Below, one piece after another: positions 38,626 through 51,723 of a DNA stretch of 64,000 bases. Location: positions 5,237 through 69,236 of the forward strand of contig JAFVRJ010000016.1 of assembly GCA_017504305.1 (NCBI GenBank), in the 5' to 3' direction. Each line of letters starts with the position of its first letter. The first letter of the stretch is position 1. This DNA comes from Clostridia bacterium. Its GTDB lineage: Bacteria; Bacillota; Clostridia; Christensenellales; DTU072. The position numbers and the translations under genes are program-made. The notes below the pieces were generated by a model. That model did not search any database, had not been told where the DNA came from, and was given only the letters and a program-made list of their open reading frames with translations.

Positions 38626-40401
38626 TTATGCGTTGATTGCGGCTTCAATTGCTTGCGATAATGCATTGAATTCGGTTGCGATATCGTCTTTAGCTTTGCC
38701 GACGTTATTGTTATAGCTTACTGCATCTTGGTTTATAAGGGAATCGTTATAAACCTTTGCGTTAGTGTTGACGTAGAAAATGGTGGGTTCTGCGTCGGTA
38801 GACTTGACGTCGTATAGGTGTACGACACGATACTTTTGTTCACCGTCCTTCTTATCGCCCGATTTCTCGTACGTCATACGTGCGGTGCTATAGGAAGAAT
38901 CTTGCAACCAAGCATCAAAGGTTTCGCCTTCGTCTTCCTTGATAGTGATGATTTCGACTGCGTTAGCAAGTTCGCCGGCAATACCTTGGAACGCGGTAAA
39001 CTTGGTTGCCAAATTTCCCAAAACGGACTCGCCGTACACTCTACCGACTATACCGCCGTTATTGACGTAATACGGGTTTTCCTTGGCGTTATGCGAATAG
39101 GTAATATGGGTATCGTTTAATATTAACGCTCTATCATAATAAAGCTCGCCGTCGGCAACCGCGTTGTTGATAGAAGAAAAATGTAACATACCTACCAAAC
39201 CGCCGGTGTAGTTGAATACATTGACGGGAAGAACTATCTTACCAACCGAGCTTACAACGTTATCAAGAGAGGTGAAGTTAGCGCAGTATCCTGCAAAACC
39301 GCCAACGTTATAAGAAGTGGTTTGGGTGGTGCTTAAACGCTTTGCGTTTATTTCCCCTATCATAGATTTACTCTTTGCAAGAGCAACTCTATCTAATGAA
39401 CCTGCTACGCCACCAACGTTCAATCTCTTATAAGACTTGGTGTTGATAACGCCTGCGGTGCTTACCCATTTGCTTGCGTTTTTGACTCTGTAAGCAGAAC
39501 CAACTATTCCACCGGCGTTAACGAGTTCGCCGGATGCGTTAAGGTTACCATTATAGGTGAGGTTTTGTGCTTCGATATACTCAGCGTTAGATTTTTCAGA
39601 AGATAAATTGATGGTACGCAAAGTACCCACTACACCACCCATCGTCAAGTTGCTAACGGCAGAAAGGGTTATGGCTCTTTTTTCTTCATCGTCGCTATCT
39701 TTGTAAGTTTTGACAGATTCATCGGAATTTACGGTGATATTTACTGCAGAGTTAATTCCGTTATACTTGGCGTTGCCTATAGAGTAACCTACGAGTCCAC
39801 CAATGCTAACCGCCATGTCGTAACGCTCGGGTTCTACGCTACGCGAACCGTCGGTATTGGTTTTAACTCTACAAATATTACCCATGGTTGCGGTAACGTT
39901 ACCGTAAACGTTGATGTTTTTAATATCGTTATCGCCGTACGCATAACCAGCAAGACCACCGATAAATTGGCTCTCCGCATCGGCGGGAACACTTAAGTTA
40001 ACGTGTACGTTAAGGTCGTTTATTTTTGCTCCGAATATAACACCAAATAGTCCGTAATATGCAATTTCGTTAAGCTCTTCCGAACGAGTTTCAGGCTCCG
40101 GAATATTAATAGAATAGACTATCGTATGTCCGTTACCGTTTATGGTACCGCGGAAGGAGTTATCGATACTATTACCAATGGGAGTCCAATCCCCTTCCAA
40201 GATTATATCGGATTTAATGTTGTAAACACCTTTATCGTAATCTCTGCCGAGGTTGTCGGCAAGCTTTTTAAAATCTGCAGCGTTATTTACGTCAACGGAA
40301 AACTCACCCTTATGAGTGTCTTTATCGTTGCACGCAACGAGAGCAAACGCCATCGTTAAAACCACCGCAAATATTAATATTGTTTTAAACGCTTTTTTCA
40401 T
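38626..40401 (-). CDS. Putative surface lipoprotein with GLUG-like GG[LIVF]xG repeats
   Basis: Lipobox LVAC; WTPIG...F.G..NGNGHTI; repeated GGLAG/GGLVG/GGVVG/GGIVG/GGVAG/GGFAG. Confidence 0.65.
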   Translation of the reverse strand: MKKAFKTILIFAVVLTMAFALVACNDKDTHKGEFSVDVNNAADFKKLADNLGRDYDKGVYNIKSDIILEGDWTPIGNSIDNSFRGTINGNGHTIVYSINIPEPETRSEELNEIAYYGLFGVIFGAKINDLNVHVNLSVPADAESQFIGGLAGYAYGDNDIKNINVYGNVTATMGNICRVKTNTDGSRSVEPERYDMAVSIGGLVGYSIGNAKYNGINSAVNITVNSDESVKTYKDSDDEEKRAITLSAVSNLTMGGVVGTLRTINLSSEKSNAEYIEAQNLTYNGNLNASGELVNAGGIVGSAYRVKNASKWVSTAGVINTKSYKRLNVGGVAGSLDRVALAKSKSMIGEINAKRLSTTQTTSYNVGGFAGYCANFTSLDNVVSSVGKIVLPVNVFNYTGGLVGMLHFSSINNAVADGELYYDRALILNDTHITYSHNAKENPYYVNNGGIVGRVYGESVLGNLATKFTAFQGIAGELANAVEIITIKEDEGETFDAWLQDSSYSTARMTYEKSGDKKDGEQKYRVVHLYDVKSTDAEPTIFYVNTNAKVYNDSLINQDAVSYNNNVGKAKDDIATEFNALSQAIEAAINA

Positions 40402-40421
40402 ATTTTTTCCCGTTTAAAAGT

Positions 40422-48340: not shown

Positions 48341-49156
48341 TTAGATTTCGGAGTTTACGCCTTGTAAAAACGCTTTTAGCTTGGGTGACTTCGGATTGTC
48401 GAATACCTCGCTCGGAGCCCCCTCTTCTTCCACTAAACCCTCTGCCATAAACACAATTTTATCCGATACGTTCTTTGCAAATCCCATTTCGTGCGTAACG
48501 ATAATCATTGTCATGTTGGTGGATTCTTTGAGCTCTTTTATAACCCTTAATACCTCGCCGGTAAGCTCGGGATCAAGCGCCGACGTGGGCTCGTCAAAGC
48601 ACAATACCAAGGGCTTGAGCGCCATCGCTCTTGCGATTGCAACACGTTGGCATTGACCGCCTGAAAGCTCACAGGGATAGGAGTCTTTCTTTTCGGTAAG
48701 TCCAACTTTTTCTAAAAGCTCAAGGCCCTCTTTTTCAATTTCAAGCTTTCTTTCGTGAACGGCTCGCTTAAGCTCTCTGCCTTTTAAGCCCTGCTTCTTC
48801 AAAGAGGTTTCAGCCAAAAGTCCGGGGGCAAGCGTTACGTTCTTCAAAACGGTGTACTGCGGGAAAAGGTTAAAGGACTGGAATACCAAACCAAAATTAA
48901 GTCGCTTTTGTCTTATTTCGGCGTCACTGTATTGATTGGCTTTAGCTGCGTCAAAAAGCAACTCCCCTTCCAAAAGCATCTGACCACTATCGGGCGTCTC
49001 GAGGAAGTTGATACTGCGTAATAACGTGGTTTTACCGCTTCCCGAAGATCCGATTATAGTTAAAACCTCGCTCTTTTCGATTGAAACATCTATCCCTTTT
49101 AGCACCTGTAATCCGCCAAAAGATTTTGTAAAGTTTTTAATTTCCAAATAACTCAT
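48341..49156 (-). CDS. Polar amino acid ABC transporter ATP-binding protein (GlnQ-like)
   Basis: GSSGSGKTT, VFQSFNLF, LSGGQCQR, FDEPTSALDPE, VTHEM. Confidence 0.95.
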   Translation of the reverse strand: MSYLEIKNFTKSFGGLQVLKGIDVSIEKSEVLTIIGSSGSGKTTLLRSINFLETPDSGQMLLEGELLFDAAKANQYSDAEIRQKRLNFGLVFQSFNLFPQYTVLKNVTLAPGLLAETSLKKQGLKGRELKRAVHERKLEIEKEGLELLEKVGLTEKKDSYPCELSGGQCQRVAIARAMALKPLVLCFDEPTSALDPELTGEVLRVIKELKESTNMTMIIVTHEMGFAKNVSDKIVFMAEGLVEEEGAPSEVFDNPKSPKLKAFLQGVNSEI

Positions 49157-49159
49157 AGT

Positions 49160-49843
49160 TTATTCCTTATAAAAATTAAGCTTCTTTTCAAGGAACGCAA
49201 ACAATACCGTTAAGAGTCCATTGAAAATTAAATAGAACGCTGCAGCGTAGAATAAAGGCGTCAATACAACGAATTCGTTTACCAAGGATTCTGCCATTGT
49301 GTAAAGCTCTATAACGCCTGCAACCGAAGCAAGAGCAGTATCTTTAACCAAAGTTATAACTTCGTTACTAACGGGAGTTAAGGTCTTTTTAACAAGTTGT
49401 AAGAAGATAATTTTTCTAAATATTTGCCCTTTAGTCATACCTAAAACGGCACCGGCTTCATATTGACCTTTAGGCATACCCTCTATTGCGCCACGGAAGA
49501 TTTCCGAAAAATAGCAAGCGTAGTTCAAAATAAACGCTAAACTTGCATATACGAATAGTAGGCTCTTCATTTTAATGCCAAAGAAGGAAATAATCGTCGT
49601 GTTACCTACGTTAAATAGATAGTAAGGTATTAAGGTAACAAGCAGTACTTGAAGCATCAACGGCGTACCGCGAATAATCCAAACAAGGCCTCGACAAAAG
49701 GCTTTGAGTGGAATAAATTTGGATCTTGATCCAAACGATATAACTAATCCAAGTGGTAAAGACGCCAAAAGGGTTATGGCAAACAATAATAATGTTTTGC
49801 CAAAACCCTCACAGAGCGCTTTAATAATTTCTAAAAATTCCAT
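49160..49843 (-). CDS. Polar amino acid ABC transporter permease
   Basis: RGTPLMLQ, YFSEIFRG, GQYEAGAVLG (EAA loop), LVKDTAL. Confidence 0.95.
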   Translation of the reverse strand: MEFLEIIKALCEGFGKTLLLFAITLLASLPLGLVISFGSRSKFIPLKAFCRGLVWIIRGTPLMLQVLLVTLIPYYLFNVGNTTIISFFGIKMKSLLFVYASLAFILNYACYFSEIFRGAIEGMPKGQYEAGAVLGMTKGQIFRKIIFLQLVKKTLTPVSNEVITLVKDTALASVAGVIELYTMAESLVNEFVVLTPLFYAAAFYLIFNGLLTVLFAFLEKKLNFYKE

Positions 49844-49855
49844 TTTATAATATTA

Positions 49856-50707
49856 TTATTTTTCGAGAGAAATGTAGTAGTTAGCCATTACGGAGTCGAT
49901 AACGATAACGTCGAGAGTGCCGGCCTTAAGCTTGTTGTAAGCATCTAATTGAGAGGTGCACTTGATATACTCTTTACCGATGTTATTTTTTTCGATTTGA
50001 GCTTCGCCTGCAGAGCCGTCTTCAGCACCTGCGATAGCATCTTTCATAGCGTCGATAGAGGTGAGATTATCAGCATTGTTGCTCATAACTACCGCTACTT
50101 GCTTGTTGTTGAGATAAGGTACGGAGATGCACATTTCTGCAAGTCTATCCTCGGTGATGGTGAGGCCGTTCCATACTAAATCGATTGAGCCACCTTCGAG
50201 CATAGCTTCTTTAGCACTCCATTGGATTTCCAAGAATTCAACAACGATGTTGGTGCTGTAAGTGGTATTGAGATAGTTAAATACCGCTTTAGCAAGGTCA
50301 ATATCATAGCCCTTGGTGGGAACGTCGTCTACTACGTCAAACGCGATAGGAGCAAATACGGTGTAGCCGATAACAACCTTATTTCTTGATACGAGGTTGG
50401 TCCAGCTTGCATCAGATGCGGAAGCAAAAGGATTAACGGTAGAAGAAGTAACTGCGATTTCACTATTCAAGCCGTAAGCGGTTGCAACGGTTTGCATTTC
50501 GTCATCAGCGATAGCGATAAGAGCTTCGTTGATTTTGGAGATCAAAGCATTATTGCCTTTTTTAGCTGCGATACCATATTGCTCTTGAGCAAGAACTAAA
50601 TCGGTAACTACAACGGGCTTATTGTCTTTTTTGCCACAAGCAACGATAGTTGCTGCAAGCGATAAAACGATAACTGCTACTAACAAAACTGATAAGAATT
50701 TTTTCAT
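49856..50707 (-). CDS. Amino acid ABC substrate-binding lipoprotein (family 3), circularly permuted order
   Basis: Lipobox IVAC; IGYTVFAP, GYDIDLA, WNGLTIT, PYLNNKQV; the usual C-terminal EQYGIA...INEAL segment sits at the N-terminus. Confidence 0.88.
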   Translation of the reverse strand: MKKFLSVLLVAVIVLSLAATIVACGKKDNKPVVVTDLVLAQEQYGIAAKKGNNALISKINEALIAIADDEMQTVATAYGLNSEIAVTSSTVNPFASASDASWTNLVSRNKVVIGYTVFAPIAFDVVDDVPTKGYDIDLAKAVFNYLNTTYSTNIVVEFLEIQWSAKEAMLEGGSIDLVWNGLTITEDRLAEMCISVPYLNNKQVAVVMSNNADNLTSIDAMKDAIAGAEDGSAGEAQIEKNNIGKEYIKCTSQLDAYNKLKAGTLDVIVIDSVMANYYISLEK

Positions 50708-50740
50708 GATATTGTGTTTCCTTTTGGGTTTATTTATTTG

Positions 50741-50804
50741 CTTTATCACTTTACTTAACTGAAGCGATGGTTGTATTATACTTCATTGCGCTAAAGTTGT
50801 AAAG
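50741..50804 (-). promoter_or_regulatory. sigma-A promoter of the ABC operon with a palindromic operator array
   Basis: TTTACA-17 nt-TATAAT on the minus strand; six CTT(T/C)Annn-type 8-mers arranged as a 24-bp imperfect inverted repeat around the -10. Confidence 0.65.
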
Positions 50805-50913
50805 CGTTTTTAGTATATTTTTTAAAAATTTTTTATAATTTTTTCAACGACTGCTAAAAATGGGTGAAAATACTATTATTTTATGCGTTTTTTCGATCTA
50901 TGAGATAATATAT

Positions 50914-50946
50914 AAAAAAATATAAAGGTGCTTTTTAGCACCTTTA
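50914..50946 (-). terminator. Terminator after spoVM
   Basis: TAAAGGTGCT-ttt(t)-AGCACCTTTA plus a T-rich tract on the minus strand. Confidence 0.75.
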
Positions 50947-51027
50947 ATCTTTAGAAAACAAATTTAGGATTTTTTTGATTATGCCCTTCAAGAAGTTAGG
51001 GCAATTGACAACTATTATATTTTTCAT
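50944..51027 (-). CDS. spoVM: Stage V sporulation protein M (27 aa)
   Basis: MKNIIVVNCPNFLKGIIKKILNLFSKD resembles B. subtilis SpoVM (MKFYTIKLPKFLGGIVRAMLGSFRKD); GGAGG RBS, CATATACT sigma-E-like -10, position downstream of rpe. Confidence 0.85.
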   Translation of the reverse strand: MKNIIVVNCPNFLKGIIKKILNLFSKD

Positions 51028-51069
51028 ATCCCTCCGCTAAATCAGTATATGCGGATCGTGCCAATTGAG

Positions 51070-51723
51070 TTACTCCCCTCTTATTATATTTATGGTACGC
51101 GCGGGATCGTCCGAACGATATACCGCAGAGCCTGCTACCAAAATATCTACGCCGGCTTCGCGTACTTCCTTTGCGTTAGCTTCGCCGACGCCTCCGTCGA
51201 TTTCGATTACTACTGGAAGATTGTTTTTAACAATATATTCTTTTGCCTCTTTTACCTTATCGAGCATCTCGGCAATAAACTTTTGTCCGCCAAGCCCTGC
51301 ATATACGCTCATAATCAAAAGCATATCGCACTCCTCGAGTAAGTACGCCCAATCCTTAAACGCGATATTAGGATTCAAGACGATACCGGCTTTGCAACCA
51401 AGCGCCCTTATCTTCTTTAACGTTTCAAGGGGACACTTACTTGCTTCAGGATGGAAGGTAAGATAGTCTGCACCGCACTTAACAAATTCCTCAACGTAAC
51501 GCTCGGGCTCGGTAATCATTAGGTGCACGTCAAGAGGAAGTTCCGCTATACCCTTGATTGCCTTAATCATTGGCATACCAAAGGTTATGTTCTTTACGTA
51601 AACGCCGTCCATAACGTCACAATGAACCAAGTCTGCACCCCACTCTTTGAGAGAGCGAACACTACGCTCCATGTTAACGAAGTCGCCTGCAAGTATCGAG
51701 GGCGATACCAAACGTTTAGTCAT
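51070..51723 (-). CDS. rpe: Ribulose-phosphate 3-epimerase
   Basis: SPSIL, HCDVMDG, DVHLMI, MSV..G.GGQKF, IDGG, VAGSA. Confidence 0.96.
   Translation of the reverse strand: MTKRLVSPSILAGDFVNMERSVRSLKEWGADLVHCDVMDGVYVKNITFGMPMIKAIKGIAELPLDVHLMITEPERYVEEFVKCGADYLTFHPEASKCPLETLKKIRALGCKAGIVLNPNIAFKDWAYLLEECDMLLIMSVYAGLGGQKFIAEMLDKVKEAKEYIVKNNLPVVIEIDGGVGEANAKEVREAGVDILVAGSAVYRSDDPARTINIIRGE

What the first reader, a model, noticed from the sequence alone, without database searches (positions are those of the whole stretch)
49856..50707. Naturally circularly permuted amino-acid ABC substrate-binding lipoprotein
Seen: after the lipobox Cys comes VVVTDLVLAQEQYGIAAKKGNNALISKINEAL...VATAYGL, then a short linker (TSSTVNPFASASDA), then SWTNLVSRNKVVIGYTVFAP...GYDIDLAK...WNGLTIT...PYLNNKQV...AEDGSAGE...IDSVMANYYI and the stop. 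Established: in family-3 (GlnH/ArtJ-like) binding proteins the 'E.YGIA.RKG...KINEAL...IA.KYG' block is the C-terminal part, and the 'W..I...G.L.VG..FAP' block is the N-terminal part. Inference: the order is rotated by about 60 residues, so the lipid anchor attaches near the second lobe and the original termini are joined. This fits a gene duplication followed by trimming of both ends. The gene is intact and sits in a complete SBP-permease-ATPase operon, so it is probably functional.
Basis: partly seen in the sequence, partly recalled or inferred. Interest (0 to 1): 0.8.

Follow-up and report, generated by a model that had tools for sequence, protein, structure and literature searches.

The report
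Circularly permuted amino-acid binding lipoprotein family
This gene encodes an intact amino-acid-binding lipoprotein of an ABC importer whose chain order is rotated relative to all solved relatives, and its gut-bacterial relatives carry the same fold cut open at four or more different places, which makes a natural series for studying how proteins get rearranged.

Summary
Window 49856-50707 (-) encodes a 283-aa lipoprotein. Residues ~97-282 match the N-terminal ~190 residues of family-3 (SBP_bac_3) binding proteins, and residues ~31-80 match their C-terminal module. A conserved ~20-residue linker joins the old termini.

- **Not an assembly artefact.** Contigs from two other studies span both gene ends at 100% identity. 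Twenty species-level genomes carry the same order in the same SBP-permease-ATPase operon.
- **Folding.** AlphaFold2 gives a confident model (pLDDT 91). Its secondary-structure elements are a cyclic rotation of those of a canonical relative with 54% identity.
- **More than one cut site.** Relatives at 45-79% identity show at least four cut sites (my labels A-D), the canonical order, 1.5-copy forms and tandem arrays of up to 8 units.
- **Repeated events.** Single origins of types B and C, and of all type A together, are rejected. The query's own type-A group fits one origin.
- **Signal peptide.** It stays homologous between different permutants, which fits duplication followed by trimming.
- **Precedent.** I found no description for family 3. 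A permuted type-I sugar-binding protein, TpMglB-2, is known.

Binding and transport remain untested.

The parts
49856..50707 (-). Gene for the circularly permuted family-3 substrate-binding lipoprotein (283 aa plus stop; my 'type A' order)
   Evidence: ORF and translation. PF00497 scores 64.2 bits against a cut-off of 26.4. Swapped-order alignments.
50636..50707 (-). Signal peptide and lipobox (residues 1-24, ...TIVAC; Cys24 is the presumed lipidated residue)
   Evidence: Read directly from the sequence. C24 is invariant in 55 type-A sequences. A lipobox-like motif occurs in 105 of 107 type-A proteins. The helix at 2-23 is seen in the model. Lipidation itself is inferred.
50468..50617 (-). Transposed module (residues 31-80): a short strand on the lobe-2 side, hinge strand 2, the 'EQYGIA' strand of lobe 1, and two helices. 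This is the C-terminal module in canonical proteins.
   Evidence: Aligns to 4zv1_A 183-219, to GlnH profile 200-233 of 248, and to P0137 183-259. The model shows E31-49, H53-66 and H70-77, which equal the last three elements of canonical P0137.
50408..50467 (-). Linker that joins the old C- and N-termini (residues 81-100, ...NSEIAVTSSTVNPFASASDA)
   Evidence: No regular secondary structure at 78-100 in the model, yet pLDDT is 95-98. N92, P93 and D99 are invariant. Canonical relatives lack it: their median mature length is 249 against 259 for type A.
50114..50407 (-). Old N-terminal part of lobe 1 (residues 101-198), including W163 and the WNGLTITEDR segment
   Evidence: Aligns to residues ~6-100 of 4ohn_A and 3hv1_A. 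W163, W179, N180 and D176 are conserved at 93% or more across all chain orders.
50084..50113 (-). Hinge strand 1 (residues 199-208), the crossover from lobe 1 to lobe 2
   Evidence: Strand E199-208 in the model corresponds to E117-126 of canonical P0137. Its assignment as the hinge is inferred from the family's known fold.
49859..50083 (-). Lobe 2 (residues 209-283). The chain ends after the last lobe-2 helix (H272-280). Includes GSAG at 231-234 and D271.
   Evidence: Aligns to 4ohn_A ~110-190. S232 and D271 are conserved across orders. The stop codon lies 12 bases before the permease start.
50775..50803 (-). Promoter-like site: TTTACA, 17-base spacer, TATAAT
   Evidence: 11 of 12 consensus matches. 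This is a consensus match only, not shown to function.
50923..50946 (-). Terminator-like hairpin after the upstream rpe gene, which sets the SBP operon apart as its own unit
   Evidence: Ten-pair stem followed by a T run.
49160..49843 (-). Permease gene (227 aa), the only membrane subunit in the operon
   Evidence: ORF. Orthologs at 49-84% identity directly follow the SBP gene in 77 of the 80 related loci and in L003-L013. It is fused to permuted SBPs in P0122-P0124.
48341..49156 (-). ABC ATPase gene (271 aa)
   Evidence: ORF with Walker A GSGKTT and signature LSGGQ, read from the translation. Orthologs at 48-67% identity in related loci.

Best explanation
The gene encodes a functional, lipid-anchored substrate-binding protein of a polar-amino-acid ABC importer (one permease gene, one ATPase gene). 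Its fold is the usual two-lobed family-3 'Venus flytrap', but the chain is circularly permuted.

**Chain order.** The chain starts six residues after the lipidated Cys, just before hinge strand 2. It runs through what is normally the C-terminal module of lobe 1 and crosses a conserved ~20-residue linker into the normal N-terminus. It then builds the rest of lobe 1, crosses hinge strand 1 and ends with lobe 2. Both lobes thereby become nearly contiguous stretches of sequence.

**Origin.** It arose by permutation through duplication. A signal-peptide-bearing gene acquired a second, in-frame copy of the mature part, or was already a tandem array. It was then trimmed in-frame behind the lipobox and truncated at the matching point of the second copy.

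**Scope.** In this group of gut Clostridia (records titled mostly Christensenellaceae or Christensenellales) the process happened repeatedly and at different permissive loops. The query belongs to a type-A group that is compatible with one origin, nested among type-B relatives.

**What is shown.** The permuted order, its conservation, intactness, operon context, confident predicted fold, multiple cut sites and repeated events.

**What is inferred.** Lipidation, amino-acid binding, delivery to the permease dimer, and the order of mutational steps.
For: **Order.**
- Swapped alignments to solved SBPs, to NCBIfam profiles and to the canonical relative P0137 (54% and 48% identity in two swapped segments).
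- AlphaFold2 gives pLDDT 91.0 and pTM 0.81. Its elements E31-49, H53-66 and H70-77 equal the last three elements of the model of P0137 (E204-207 with E213-222, H226-238, H240-250; pLDDT 91.4). All other elements follow in the same cyclic order.
- Foldseek and VIA match model residues 98-283 to residues 1-~195 of canonical chains (Z 12-14).

**Real and conserved.**
- Logan contigs of runs X2 and X3 (studies P2 and P3) tile 49100-51074 with 0 differences. They bridge the 5' end (50148-50784; 50396-50784) and the stop/permease junction (49467-49968; 49756-49968).
- 107 of the 276 proteins collected have the type-A order, and 105 of those 107 have a lipobox-like motif.
- 20 of the 80 best species-level loci are type A, and 57 are type B. 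The permease gene lies directly downstream in 77 of 80.

**Constraint.**
- 56 columns are invariant in 55 type-A sequences.
- 21 columns are at least 90% conserved across all orders, including E42 and Y44 in the moved module, W163, D176, W179, N180, S232 and D271.
- R188, in TITEDR, aligns to the R of GMTITEER in arginine-bound AncQR 4zv1, and D271 aligns to its 'vvtD'. Their roles in binding the alpha-carboxylate and alpha-ammonium groups are recalled, not tested.

**Duplication model.**
- 13 multi-unit relatives, including P0087 (1.5 units), P0165 (1.6), and P0127, P0129 and P0128 (8, 6 and 5 units).
- The signal peptide is kept while the body rotates: P0141 (B) versus P0142 (C) are 68% identical over 25 signal-peptide residues, with 76% and 75% in swapped segments and no residues lost at the junctions.
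- The paralog aligns colinearly over the SBD1-SBD2 junction of 6h30_A (q44-275 = 187-395).

**Repeated events.**
- 33 type changes on a 173-row FastTree and 13 on a 58-row IQ-TREE.
- AU tests reject one clade for type C (p 7.5e-90), for type B (p 3.3e-17) and for all type A in a wider set (p 8.8e-5). One clade for the 17 type-A rows near the query is not rejected (p 0.63).
Against: - No experiment and no RNA data were available. No RNA run was listed, which is not evidence either way.
- Model coordinates are not exposed, so no permutation-aware superposition was done. That residues 31-80 sit where the canonical C-terminal module sits rests on homology, secondary-structure order and high pLDDT.
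- The stand-alone matches of the moved module to distant profiles are weak (E 0.002-0.11).
- All NCBIfam equivalog and subfamily scores are far below their cut-offs (best 69 bits against 256), so the substrate cannot be named.
- No leftover fragment of a second copy exists in the window or in the short spacers of related loci. The duplication intermediate of this particular gene is therefore not observed, only analogous ones.
- The giant tandem arrays form their own clade (24 rows, support 100) and are not the direct ancestors.
- P0087's extra part is only 40% identical to its own first unit, so it may be an old tandem or a fusion of neighbouring paralogs rather than a fresh duplication.
- The AU groups were named after a first tree had been seen.
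- Nearest-neighbour counts (47 of 214 rows have a nearest neighbour of another type) are biased by the 50% clustering of the library.
- The operon is not syntenic with rpe or L28 in any of the 80 related loci, so orthology of the differently permuted genes rests on permease and ATPase identity alone.
Confidence: 0.8

Rival explanations
1. Assembly artefact: the gene is a collapsed or chimeric version of a tandem two-unit gene, and the odd order exists only in this assembly.
For: Tandem multi-unit relatives exist. The window comes from a metagenome-assembled genome of 27 contigs. Repeats of this kind can collapse during assembly.
Against: - Contigs from two other studies reproduce both ends of the gene at 100% identity.
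- The stretch is held by 20 runs from 7 studies.
- The same start (lipobox, then hinge strand) and the same end (stop just before the permease) recur in 20 species-level genomes from many projects and in 107 protein clusters.
- No second partial copy lies in the window.
Confidence: 0.02
2. Decaying remnant: the gene is a non-functional leftover of a trimmed tandem array, and the transporter works without it or not at all.
For: No expression or binding data exist. The genome has only two family-3 SBP genes and both are permuted, so no canonical copy is available for comparison within the same cell.
Against: - The frame is intact, with signal peptide, lipobox, ribosome site and a promoter-like site.
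- Conservation is strong across type-A sequences at 50-92% identity, with 56 invariant columns.
- Residues conserved in canonical relatives are kept.
- The operon with permease and ATPase is conserved.
- The fold is predicted with confidence.
- With both of the genome's family-3 SBPs permuted, non-function would leave two importers without a binding protein.
Confidence: 0.05
3. The permutation is real but arose by another route (fission of the gene and re-fusion in the other order, or cut-and-paste recombination), not by duplication and trimming.
For: - The spacers are clean and no leftover of a second copy was found.
- 36 of the 276 proteins are partial. Some might be true split genes rather than contig-end fragments.
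- P0087's second unit is old (40% identity).
Against: - A split-off piece would lack a signal peptide and could not be exported, whereas the signal peptide is retained and homologous between permutants.
- Forms with 1.4 to 8 units exist among relatives.
- The junctions of P0141 and P0142 are exact rotations without loss of residues.
- The linker corresponds to an inter-unit junction, as shown by the paralog against the GlnPQ tandem.
- Fission and fusion is a recognised alternative model in general (PMC3320104, passages read).
Confidence: 0.08
4. The protein is folded and binds a ligand, but the new topology has changed its role, for example to a sensor, an adhesin, or a binding protein with altered opening and closing that serves another partner.
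For: - The cut lies next to hinge strand 2, and the tether to the membrane is only six residues. Both could alter dynamics or docking geometry.
- All NCBIfam equivalogs score below cut-off.
Against: - The gene sits directly upstream of its permease with a 12-base spacer. The same arrangement is kept for types A, B, C and the canonical order.
- Permuted types B and C occur fused to the permease (P0122-P0124), which ties them to transport.
- Short tethers (median 3-6 residues) are shared by canonical relatives too.
Confidence: 0.05

Closest known systems
Canonical family-3 (Pfam PF00497, SBP_bac_3) polar-amino-acid binding proteins, e.g. PDB 4ohn (S. pneumoniae, histidine-bound), 3hv1, AncQR 4zv1, ArtJ 2pvu, GlnBP 1ggg/1wdn
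   Same: - The same two-lobed fold and the same sequence family: 64 bits to PF00497, 30-35% identity to 4ohn and 3hv1, and VIA Z 12-14 over ~165-180 residues.
- The same conserved segments (GxTIT..R, D271, YGIA).
- The same operon type, with a PAAT-type permease and ATPase.
   Different: - The chain order is rotated. The canonical C-terminal module comes first, the old termini are joined by a ~20-residue linker, and the chain ends in lobe 2.
- It scores far below every named NCBIfam equivalog cut-off.
TpMglB-2 (Tp0684) of Treponema pallidum, proposed 'Type Ic / Cluster Bc' (PMC4990184; abstract and passages read)
   Same: - A natural circular permutation in a lipid-tethered ABC binding protein.
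- Homologs occur mostly in organisms with tethered binding proteins.
- Ligand binding and closure were retained in that case.
   Different: - It is a type I / cluster B sugar-binding protein with three hinge segments plus a fourth created by the permutation.
- A single permuted order was described there. The permuted part is only 13% identical to the canonical one, and its authors left open acquisition from another gene.
- Here the protein is type II / family 3. The moved part is clearly homologous (48% to a canonical relative). Several cut sites and duplication intermediates are seen.
Tandem substrate-binding domains of GlnPQ (SBD1-SBD2, PDB 6h30; listing and abstract of 10.1101/2020.12.19.423572)
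   Same: - Family-3 units joined head to tail in one chain.
- The paralog in this genome aligns colinearly across the SBD1-SBD2 junction. This is what a type-A permutant cut from a tandem should do.
   Different: - The GlnPQ units are each in canonical order and are fused to the permease.
- The window's protein is a single unit on a lipid anchor.
Engineered circular permutants of family-3 binding proteins used in sensors (Whitfield 2015 and Clifton 2017; seen only as titles in the reference list of PMC7683729)
   Same: They show that the fold can tolerate new termini, as far as the titles indicate.
   Different: - They are man-made.
- Their cut sites are unknown to me from what I read.
- They are not lipoproteins in a transporter operon.
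Textbook cases of permutation by duplication: DNA methyltransferases, saposin/swaposin (PMC3320104; passages read)
   Same: The same proposed mechanism. The predicted partially duplicated intermediates are found among relatives.
   Different: - A different fold.
- Here an export signal has to be kept at the N-terminus through every step.
- Permutants of different phase are up to 79% identical.

Membership tests
Pfam PF00497 SBP_bac_3 (family-3 solute-binding proteins) | Score above Pfam's gathering cut-off | tested here: met
   64.2 bits against 26.4, E 1.4e-17. 55.3 bits in the genome scan.
Pfam PF00497 SBP_bac_3 (family-3 solute-binding proteins) | Canonical order of elements: N-terminal part of lobe 1, then lobe 2, then the C-terminal module of lobe 1 | tested here: not met
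   The C-terminal module precedes the N-terminal part. The secondary-structure order is a cyclic rotation of canonical P0137. The protein is homologous to the family but topologically a variant.
Pfam PF00497 SBP_bac_3 (family-3 solute-binding proteins) | Two-lobed alpha/beta fold seen in solved members | tested here: met
   The model has pLDDT 91 and pTM 0.81. Foldseek finds 190 PDB matches at E <= 0.001, the top one being 3hv1_A at 1.9e-10. VIA gives Z 12-14 for residues 98-283. The placement of residues 31-80 could not be superposed.
Alpha-amino-acid binding SBPs (GlnH/HisJ/ArtJ type) | Arg after the GxTxT segment and Asp at the end of the last lobe-2 strand, which hold the ligand's carboxylate and ammonium groups (roles recalled from memory) | tested here: met
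   G181, T183 and D271 are invariant, and R188 is at least 90% conserved, in 55 sequences. They align to GMTITEER and 'vvtD' of arginine-bound AncQR 4zv1. Binding itself was not tested.
Named NCBIfam equivalogs (GlnH NF007029, ArtJ NF041765, cystine SBP NF008426, TIGR01096 Lys/Arg/Orn) | Whole-protein score above the curated cut-off | tested here: not met
   69.2 against 256; 54.7 against 303; 51.3 against 312; 39.1 against 510. The substrate therefore cannot be assigned by orthology.
Bacterial lipoproteins | Signal peptide ending in a lipobox with Cys at +1 | tested here: met
   MKKF...LAATIVAC with C24 invariant. A lipobox-like motif occurs in 105 of 107 type-A proteins. The acylation itself is not testable here.
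PAAT-type ABC importer operon | Binding-protein gene next to permease and ATPase genes | tested here: met
   SBP 49856-50707, permease 49160-49843 and ATPase 48341-49156 on one strand. The arrangement is kept in 77 of 80 related loci.
Circular permutants that arose by duplication | Two homologous segments in swapped order relative to a close homolog, with the old termini joined | tested here: met
   P0137 against the query: two segments in swapped order at 54% and 48% identity. The linker at 81-100 is conserved.
Circular permutants that arose by duplication | Tandem or partially duplicated forms among relatives | tested here: met
   13 of 276 proteins have 1.4 to 7.7 units. P0087 is 86% identical to type-B P0131 over 290 residues and then continues for 150 more. 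None is the direct precursor of this gene.
TpMglB-2-like 'Cluster Bc' permuted binding proteins | Homology to type I (MglB-like) sugar-binding proteins | tested here: inconclusive
   No MglB-type chain is among the 53 PDB sequence matches or among the listed structure matches. No direct comparison was run. I treat it as an analogy, not as membership.

The most novel reading that the evidence does not exclude
This clade of gut-Clostridia binding proteins is a hot spot of recurrent circular permutation. One fold is opened at four or more loops, repeatedly and recently (permutants of different phase are up to 79% identical), always behind a retained lipoprotein signal peptide. The process is fed by tandem binding-domain duplication.

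The changes are not neutral. Types A and D move the termini to the two entry points of lobe 2. This turns the 'inserted-lobe' architecture into two contiguous domains and leaves one hinge strand held only by a terminal stub and the lipid tether. Opening and closing dynamics, and the geometry of docking on the homodimeric permease, would therefore differ between orders and be under selection.
Probability: 0.3. Interest if true: 0.8.

Novelty: new variant of a known kind. Interest (0 to 1): 0.65.

Why it matters
Family-3 binding proteins are a standard model for ligand-induced domain closure. They are also the scaffold of many biosensors and a test bed for protein-evolution work.

**What the family offers.**
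- Four cut sites, the canonical order, 1.5-copy forms and long tandem arrays all occur among relatives that are still 45-79% identical.
- This gives a ready-made comparative series. It can test how the position of the termini affects folding, hinge mechanics, affinity and docking to the transporter.
- It can also test the duplication model of circular permutation when an export signal must stay in place.

**Practical consequences.**
- Colinear profile methods under-score these proteins. All NCBIfam equivalogs fall below cut-off, and the records call them only 'substrate-binding domain-containing'.
- Clustering by colinear coverage splits close relatives, so transporter repertoires of gut Christensenellales-like bacteria are likely mis-described.
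- The natural cut sites point to permissive positions for engineered permutants and insertions.

Tried and rejected
- **Pfam as the test of swapped order.** The model held here has 132 positions. For this gene it shows one clear stretch, and residues 25-100 alone gave 0 Pfam families. It worked for the paralog. I relied on NCBIfam, PDB sequences and close relatives instead.
- **Permutation-aware superposition.** Not possible, because model coordinates are not exposed. Foldseek and VIA align in sequence order and cover only residues ~98-283.
- **Rfam on the 5' region (50650-51120).** No riboswitch or T-box. All 6 matches were far below the gathering scores.
- **Synteny.** None of the 80 related loci has rpe, rsgA, L28, Asp23 or DAK2 homologs within 4 kb. 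I could not show that differently permuted genes occupy the same chromosomal site.
- **Remnants of a second copy.** None in the window. The spacers to the permease gene in related loci are 0-84 bases.
- **Expression.** No RNA holder was listed. Parts of the stretch lack cover in runs X4 and X12.
- **The 'longer' word-based search.** It gave only 5 proteins. The exhaustive representative search was needed to find the tandem arrays.
- **A strict 'single hinge' reading for type A.** I considered it and softened it. Profile mapping and the canonical model put the cut a few residues before hinge strand 2, so a short N-terminal strand may still dock on lobe 2.
- **Literature.** Seven of the eight searches bore on circular permutation or tandem binding domains. 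They found no description of natural circular permutation in family-3 binding proteins. The eighth was for PfVFT1. The library lacks most subscription journals. Supplements were closed and I asked for none.
Full report
**1. The observation**

Window 49856-50749 (-) is an open frame of 297 aa from a GTG. The ATG at 50707 gives 283 aa. It is the likely start because an AAGGA-type ribosome site lies about 11 bases upstream. A promoter-like TTTACA-17-TATAAT sits at 50803..50775 (11 of 12 matches), and a terminator-like hairpin at 50946..50923 closes the upstream rpe gene.

The protein begins with a signal peptide and lipobox (…TIVAC, Cys24). Pfam SBP_bac_3 scores 64.2 bits against a cut-off of 26.4.

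**2. Is the order really rotated?**

Three lines of evidence say yes.

- *Solved structures.* Residues 97-282 align to 4ohn_A 6-190 and to 3hv1_A 7-191, the N-terminal three quarters of those chains. Residues 32-68 align to 4zv1_A 183-219, and residues 39-74 to 4ohn_A 203-239. The small matches are weak alone (i-Evalue 0.11 and 110).
- *Profiles.* Residues 25-100 scanned alone hit only C-terminal profile positions of NCBIfam models: GlnH 200-233 of 248, ArtJ 195-233 of 243, cystine SBP 206-254 of 266, and TIGR01096 208-247 of 250 (E 0.002-0.013). The body hits positions 24-188 of the GlnH model.
- *A close canonical relative.* This is the decisive evidence. P0137 has the canonical order and gives two BLASTP segments in swapped order: 29-196 = query 109-280 (54%, E 4.6e-58) and 183-259 = query 11-86 (48%, E 1.2e-16).

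AlphaFold2 models agree. The query model (55-sequence alignment, pLDDT 91.0, pTM 0.81) has E31-49, H53-66, H70-77, a coil at 78-100, then H101-108, E110-115 and so on to H272-280. The model of P0137 (pLDDT 91.4, pTM 0.84) has the same elements in the same cyclic order, but E204-207 with E213-222, H226-238 and H240-250 come last.

Foldseek and VIA-align, which align in sequence order, match model residues ~98-283 to residues 1-~195 of canonical chains (Z 12-14, rmsd 2.3-4.3). I could not run a permutation-aware superposition because coordinates are not exposed.

**3. Where is the cut?**

By the GlnH profile mapping and the canonical model, residues 31-35 correspond to a short strand after the last lobe-2 helix. 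Residues ~36-44 correspond to hinge strand 2, and residues 45-49 (GIAAK) to a lobe-1 strand. The hinge residue numbers of GlnBP and LAO that I used for this are recalled, not checked.

The chain therefore starts on the lobe-2 side of hinge 2, six residues after the lipidated Cys. It ends after the last lobe-2 helix. Lobe 1 (moved module, linker, old N-terminal part) and lobe 2 become nearly contiguous in sequence.

The linker (81-100) is conserved: N92, P93 and D99 are invariant, and T90, A97, S101 and W102 are at least 90% conserved.

**4. Not an artefact**

- The stretch 49100-51100 is held by 20 runs of 7 studies, all animal gut or faeces metagenomes by their records.
- In runs X2 and X3 (other studies than the possible source), contigs with 0 differences bridge the 5' end of the gene (50148-50784; 50396-50784). 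They also bridge the stop/permease junction (49467-49968; 49756-49968).
- X4 and X12 cover only parts of the stretch.
- No other fragment of a binding protein lies in the window.

**5. The family**

A word-based search gave 1801 proteins at E <= 0.001, of which the best 120 were listed. An exhaustive search of 50%-identity representatives gave 2988 at E <= 0.001, of which the best 150 were listed. A 'longer' search gave 5 more.

I built a profile from 55 type-A sequences, so its positions equal query numbering. I then read from the domain hits where each of the 276 proteins starts and ends on the 'circle'. The labels are mine.

| Label | Start and end on the profile | Proteins |
|---|---|---|
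| A | starts ~31, ends ~283 | 107 |
| B | starts ~242, ends ~239 (cut inside lobe 2) | 43 |
| C | starts ~128, ends ~124 (cut after strand 1 of lobe 1) | 26 |
| D | starts ~210-228, ends ~206-217 (cut just after hinge strand 1) | 4 |
| N | canonical; starts ~98, ends ~84 | 31 |
| multi-unit | more than 1.35 units | 13 |
| partial | | 36 |
| fused or extended | | 6 |
| unclear | | 10 |

These counts are not prevalences, because the first search favoured near relatives of the query. A lipobox-like motif is present in 105 of 107 A, 43 of 43 B, 23 of 26 C, 3 of 4 D and 29 of 31 N. Median mature lengths are 259, 263, 257, 252 and 249.

In one-genome-per-species contigs, 375 stretches encode a relative and the best 80 were returned. 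Of those, 20 are type A, 57 type B and 3 unclear. The permease gene lies directly downstream in 77 of 80. The record titles are MAGs named Christensenellaceae, Christensenellales, Clostridia, Eubacteriales and similar, from human, ruminant and chicken gut.

In 61 genomes of the window's family, 38 have a match at E <= 1e-10. The 11 best loci from other genomes carry type B (10 loci) or the canonical order (L013, same genus). Their permeases are 51-55% and their ATPases 50-63% identical to the window's. Types C and N were confirmed in genomic context in L094, L095 and L096.

**6. Repeated events**

On a profile-anchored alignment with the linker columns removed, a 173-row FastTree needs 33 changes of type. 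The query lies in a starred clade of 33 type-A rows, inside a starred clade of 60 rows (A 34, B 21, C 3, N 1, one multi-unit). A 58-row IQ-TREE needs 13 changes.

| AU test | Rows | Result |
|---|---|---|
| type C as one clade | 9 | rejected, p 7.5e-90 |
| type B as one clade | 25 | rejected, p 3.3e-17 |
| type A near the query as one clade | 17 | not rejected, p 0.63 |
| type N as one clade | 6 | not rejected, p 0.17 |
| all type A in a wider 44-row set | 19 | rejected, p 8.8e-5 |

Caveats: the groups were named after I had seen a first tree, the searches were 'quick', and I chose the subsets.

Direct pairs make the same point without a tree:
- P0141 (B) and P0142 (C) are 79% identical in the rotated alignment, against 61% and 55% to their nearest same-type rows.
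- N_P0246 and D_P0250: 64% against 52% and 49%.
- A_P0181 and N_P0267: 62% against 47% and 47%.
- A_P0211 and N_P0217: 61% against 48% and 48%.

The count '47 of 214 rows have a nearest neighbour of another type' is inflated, because same-type relatives above 50% identity were collapsed in the library.

**7. Mechanism of origin**

Several observations support duplication followed by trimming.
- Between P0141 and P0142 the signal peptide is 68% identical over 25 residues. The bodies are exact rotations: each protein's internal junction joins what are the other's termini, with no residues lost.
- P0155/P0168 and P0137/query also share homologous signal peptides (60% and 47%).
- P0087 is 86% identical to type-B P0131 over 290 residues and then runs on for another 150 residues into a second, diverged unit (40% identity).
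- P0165 has 1.6 units. P0127, P0129, P0128 and P0134 have 8, 6, 5 and 5-plus units.
- The second family-3 gene of the window's own genome (L002 1492-2355, 287 aa, 27-30% identical, with its own permease and ATPase) is also in type-A order. It aligns colinearly across the SBD1-SBD2 junction of the GlnPQ tandem 6h30_A (q44-275 = 187-395). Its Pfam hits are swapped.

All this fits permutation by duplication, the model summarised in PMC3320104 (passages read), with one constraint: the export signal must be kept. The sequence of events would be an in-frame second copy of the mature part, an in-frame deletion behind the lipobox, and truncation of the second copy.

Fission and fusion is less likely, because a split-off piece would have no export signal. 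The direct precursor of this gene was not found, and the giant arrays are a separate clade.

**8. Function**

The operon is SBP, then one permease, then one ATPase. The same operon follows every chain order. Types B and C also occur fused to the permease (P0122-P0124).

Residues conserved across all orders include E42 and Y44 (moved module), G114, P120, G133, D135, W163, K166, D176, W179, N180, Y198, N201, Q203, S232 and D271. R188 and D271 align to the residues of arginine-bound AncQR that I recall as holding the ligand's carboxylate and ammonium groups.

I conclude that the protein most likely binds an alpha-amino acid and delivers it to a homodimeric permease. The substrate cannot be named, because all NCBIfam equivalogs are below cut-off. 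These two genes are the only family-3 binding-protein genes found in the genome, and both are permuted.

**9. Comparison with what is known**

A natural circular permutation has been described for a type I sugar-binding lipoprotein, TpMglB-2, whose authors proposed a 'Cluster Bc' (PMC4990184; abstract and passages read). Engineered permutants of family-3 proteins exist; I saw only titles in a reference list. Tandem family-3 domains are known in GlnPQ (listing).

In seven literature searches I found no report of natural permutation in family 3, nor of a binding-protein family with several cut sites. The searchable library is incomplete.

**10. Verdict**

The gene itself is one of many: at least 20 species carry the same order, so it is not a singular oddity. 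The family as a whole is an unusually rich natural case of recurrent circular permutation.

- Novelty: new variant of a known kind.
- Interest: 0.65.
- The untested parts are ligand binding, transport, the exact three-dimensional placement of the moved module, and whether the different orders differ in dynamics or are neutral.

Noticed in passing
L002:1492-2355 (+) = own genome G000:C17:84586-85419: A second family-3 binding lipoprotein in the same genome (287 aa, 27-30% identical), with its own permease and ATPase. It is also in type-A order. Its Pfam hits are swapped, and it aligns colinearly over the SBD1-SBD2 junction of GlnPQ (6h30_A). An ortholog lies in a same-genus genome (L097). These two are the only SBP_bac_3 genes found in the genome.
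   Followed up: partly
proteins P0127 (2001 aa), P0129 (1468), P0128 (1209), P0134 (1194), P0138 (805): Giant chains of 3 to 8 tandem family-3 binding units, rich in I, K, N and Y. Four of the five end in a hydrophobic C-terminal helix, which suggests a C-terminal membrane anchor. Several look cut at the N-terminus. They form their own clade (24 units, support 100). I do not know of arrays this long being described.
   Followed up: partly
proteins P0122, P0124 (type B) and P0123 (type C): Permuted binding domains fused directly to the permease with almost no linker, while still carrying an N-terminal lipoprotein signal. The domain would then be held at both ends.
   Followed up: no
proteins P0125 (614 aa) and P0126 (613 aa): Odd chimeras. 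P0125 has about 400 unrelated N-terminal residues, followed by a unit that starts at the type-A phase and stops at profile position 241. P0126 joins a PF05183-annotated region to a unit from strand 1 to position 239. They may be misassemblies (contigs of 12.5 and 2.4 kb).
   Followed up: no
model mf5cf70e39f58, residues 50-272: The top VIA-align match was Plasmodium falciparum PfVFT1 (5jkq_B): Z 14.0, 214 residues, 10% identity. Unlike all canonical chains, it aligned colinearly from model residue 50, so it includes the moved helices. It may have a similar element order. The score is tied with the canonical matches.
   Followed up: no
window 50775-50841: In the laid metagenome contigs this A/T-rich stretch, which overlaps the promoter-like site, has about 20 times the depth of its surroundings and occurs in many unrelated short contigs (147 against ~7 in X2). 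It is a shared or low-complexity element in the community.
   Followed up: no
window 38629-40413 (-): A 595-aa frame whose first 30 residues match the signal-peptide part of the type-A profile (E 0.013). It is probably another lipoprotein. It is otherwise unrelated.
   Followed up: no
Pfam PF00497.25 as held here: The model has only 132 positions. In the paralog, positions 2-95 and 97-131 hit separately. Colinear domain annotation will under-report or split these permuted proteins.
   Followed up: partly
L014-L093 (80 related loci): None of the related operons is flanked by rpe, rsgA, L28, Asp23 or DAK2 homologs within 4 kb. The operon's chromosomal position is therefore not conserved, even among the closest type-A relatives (permease 72-84% identical).
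   Followed up: partly
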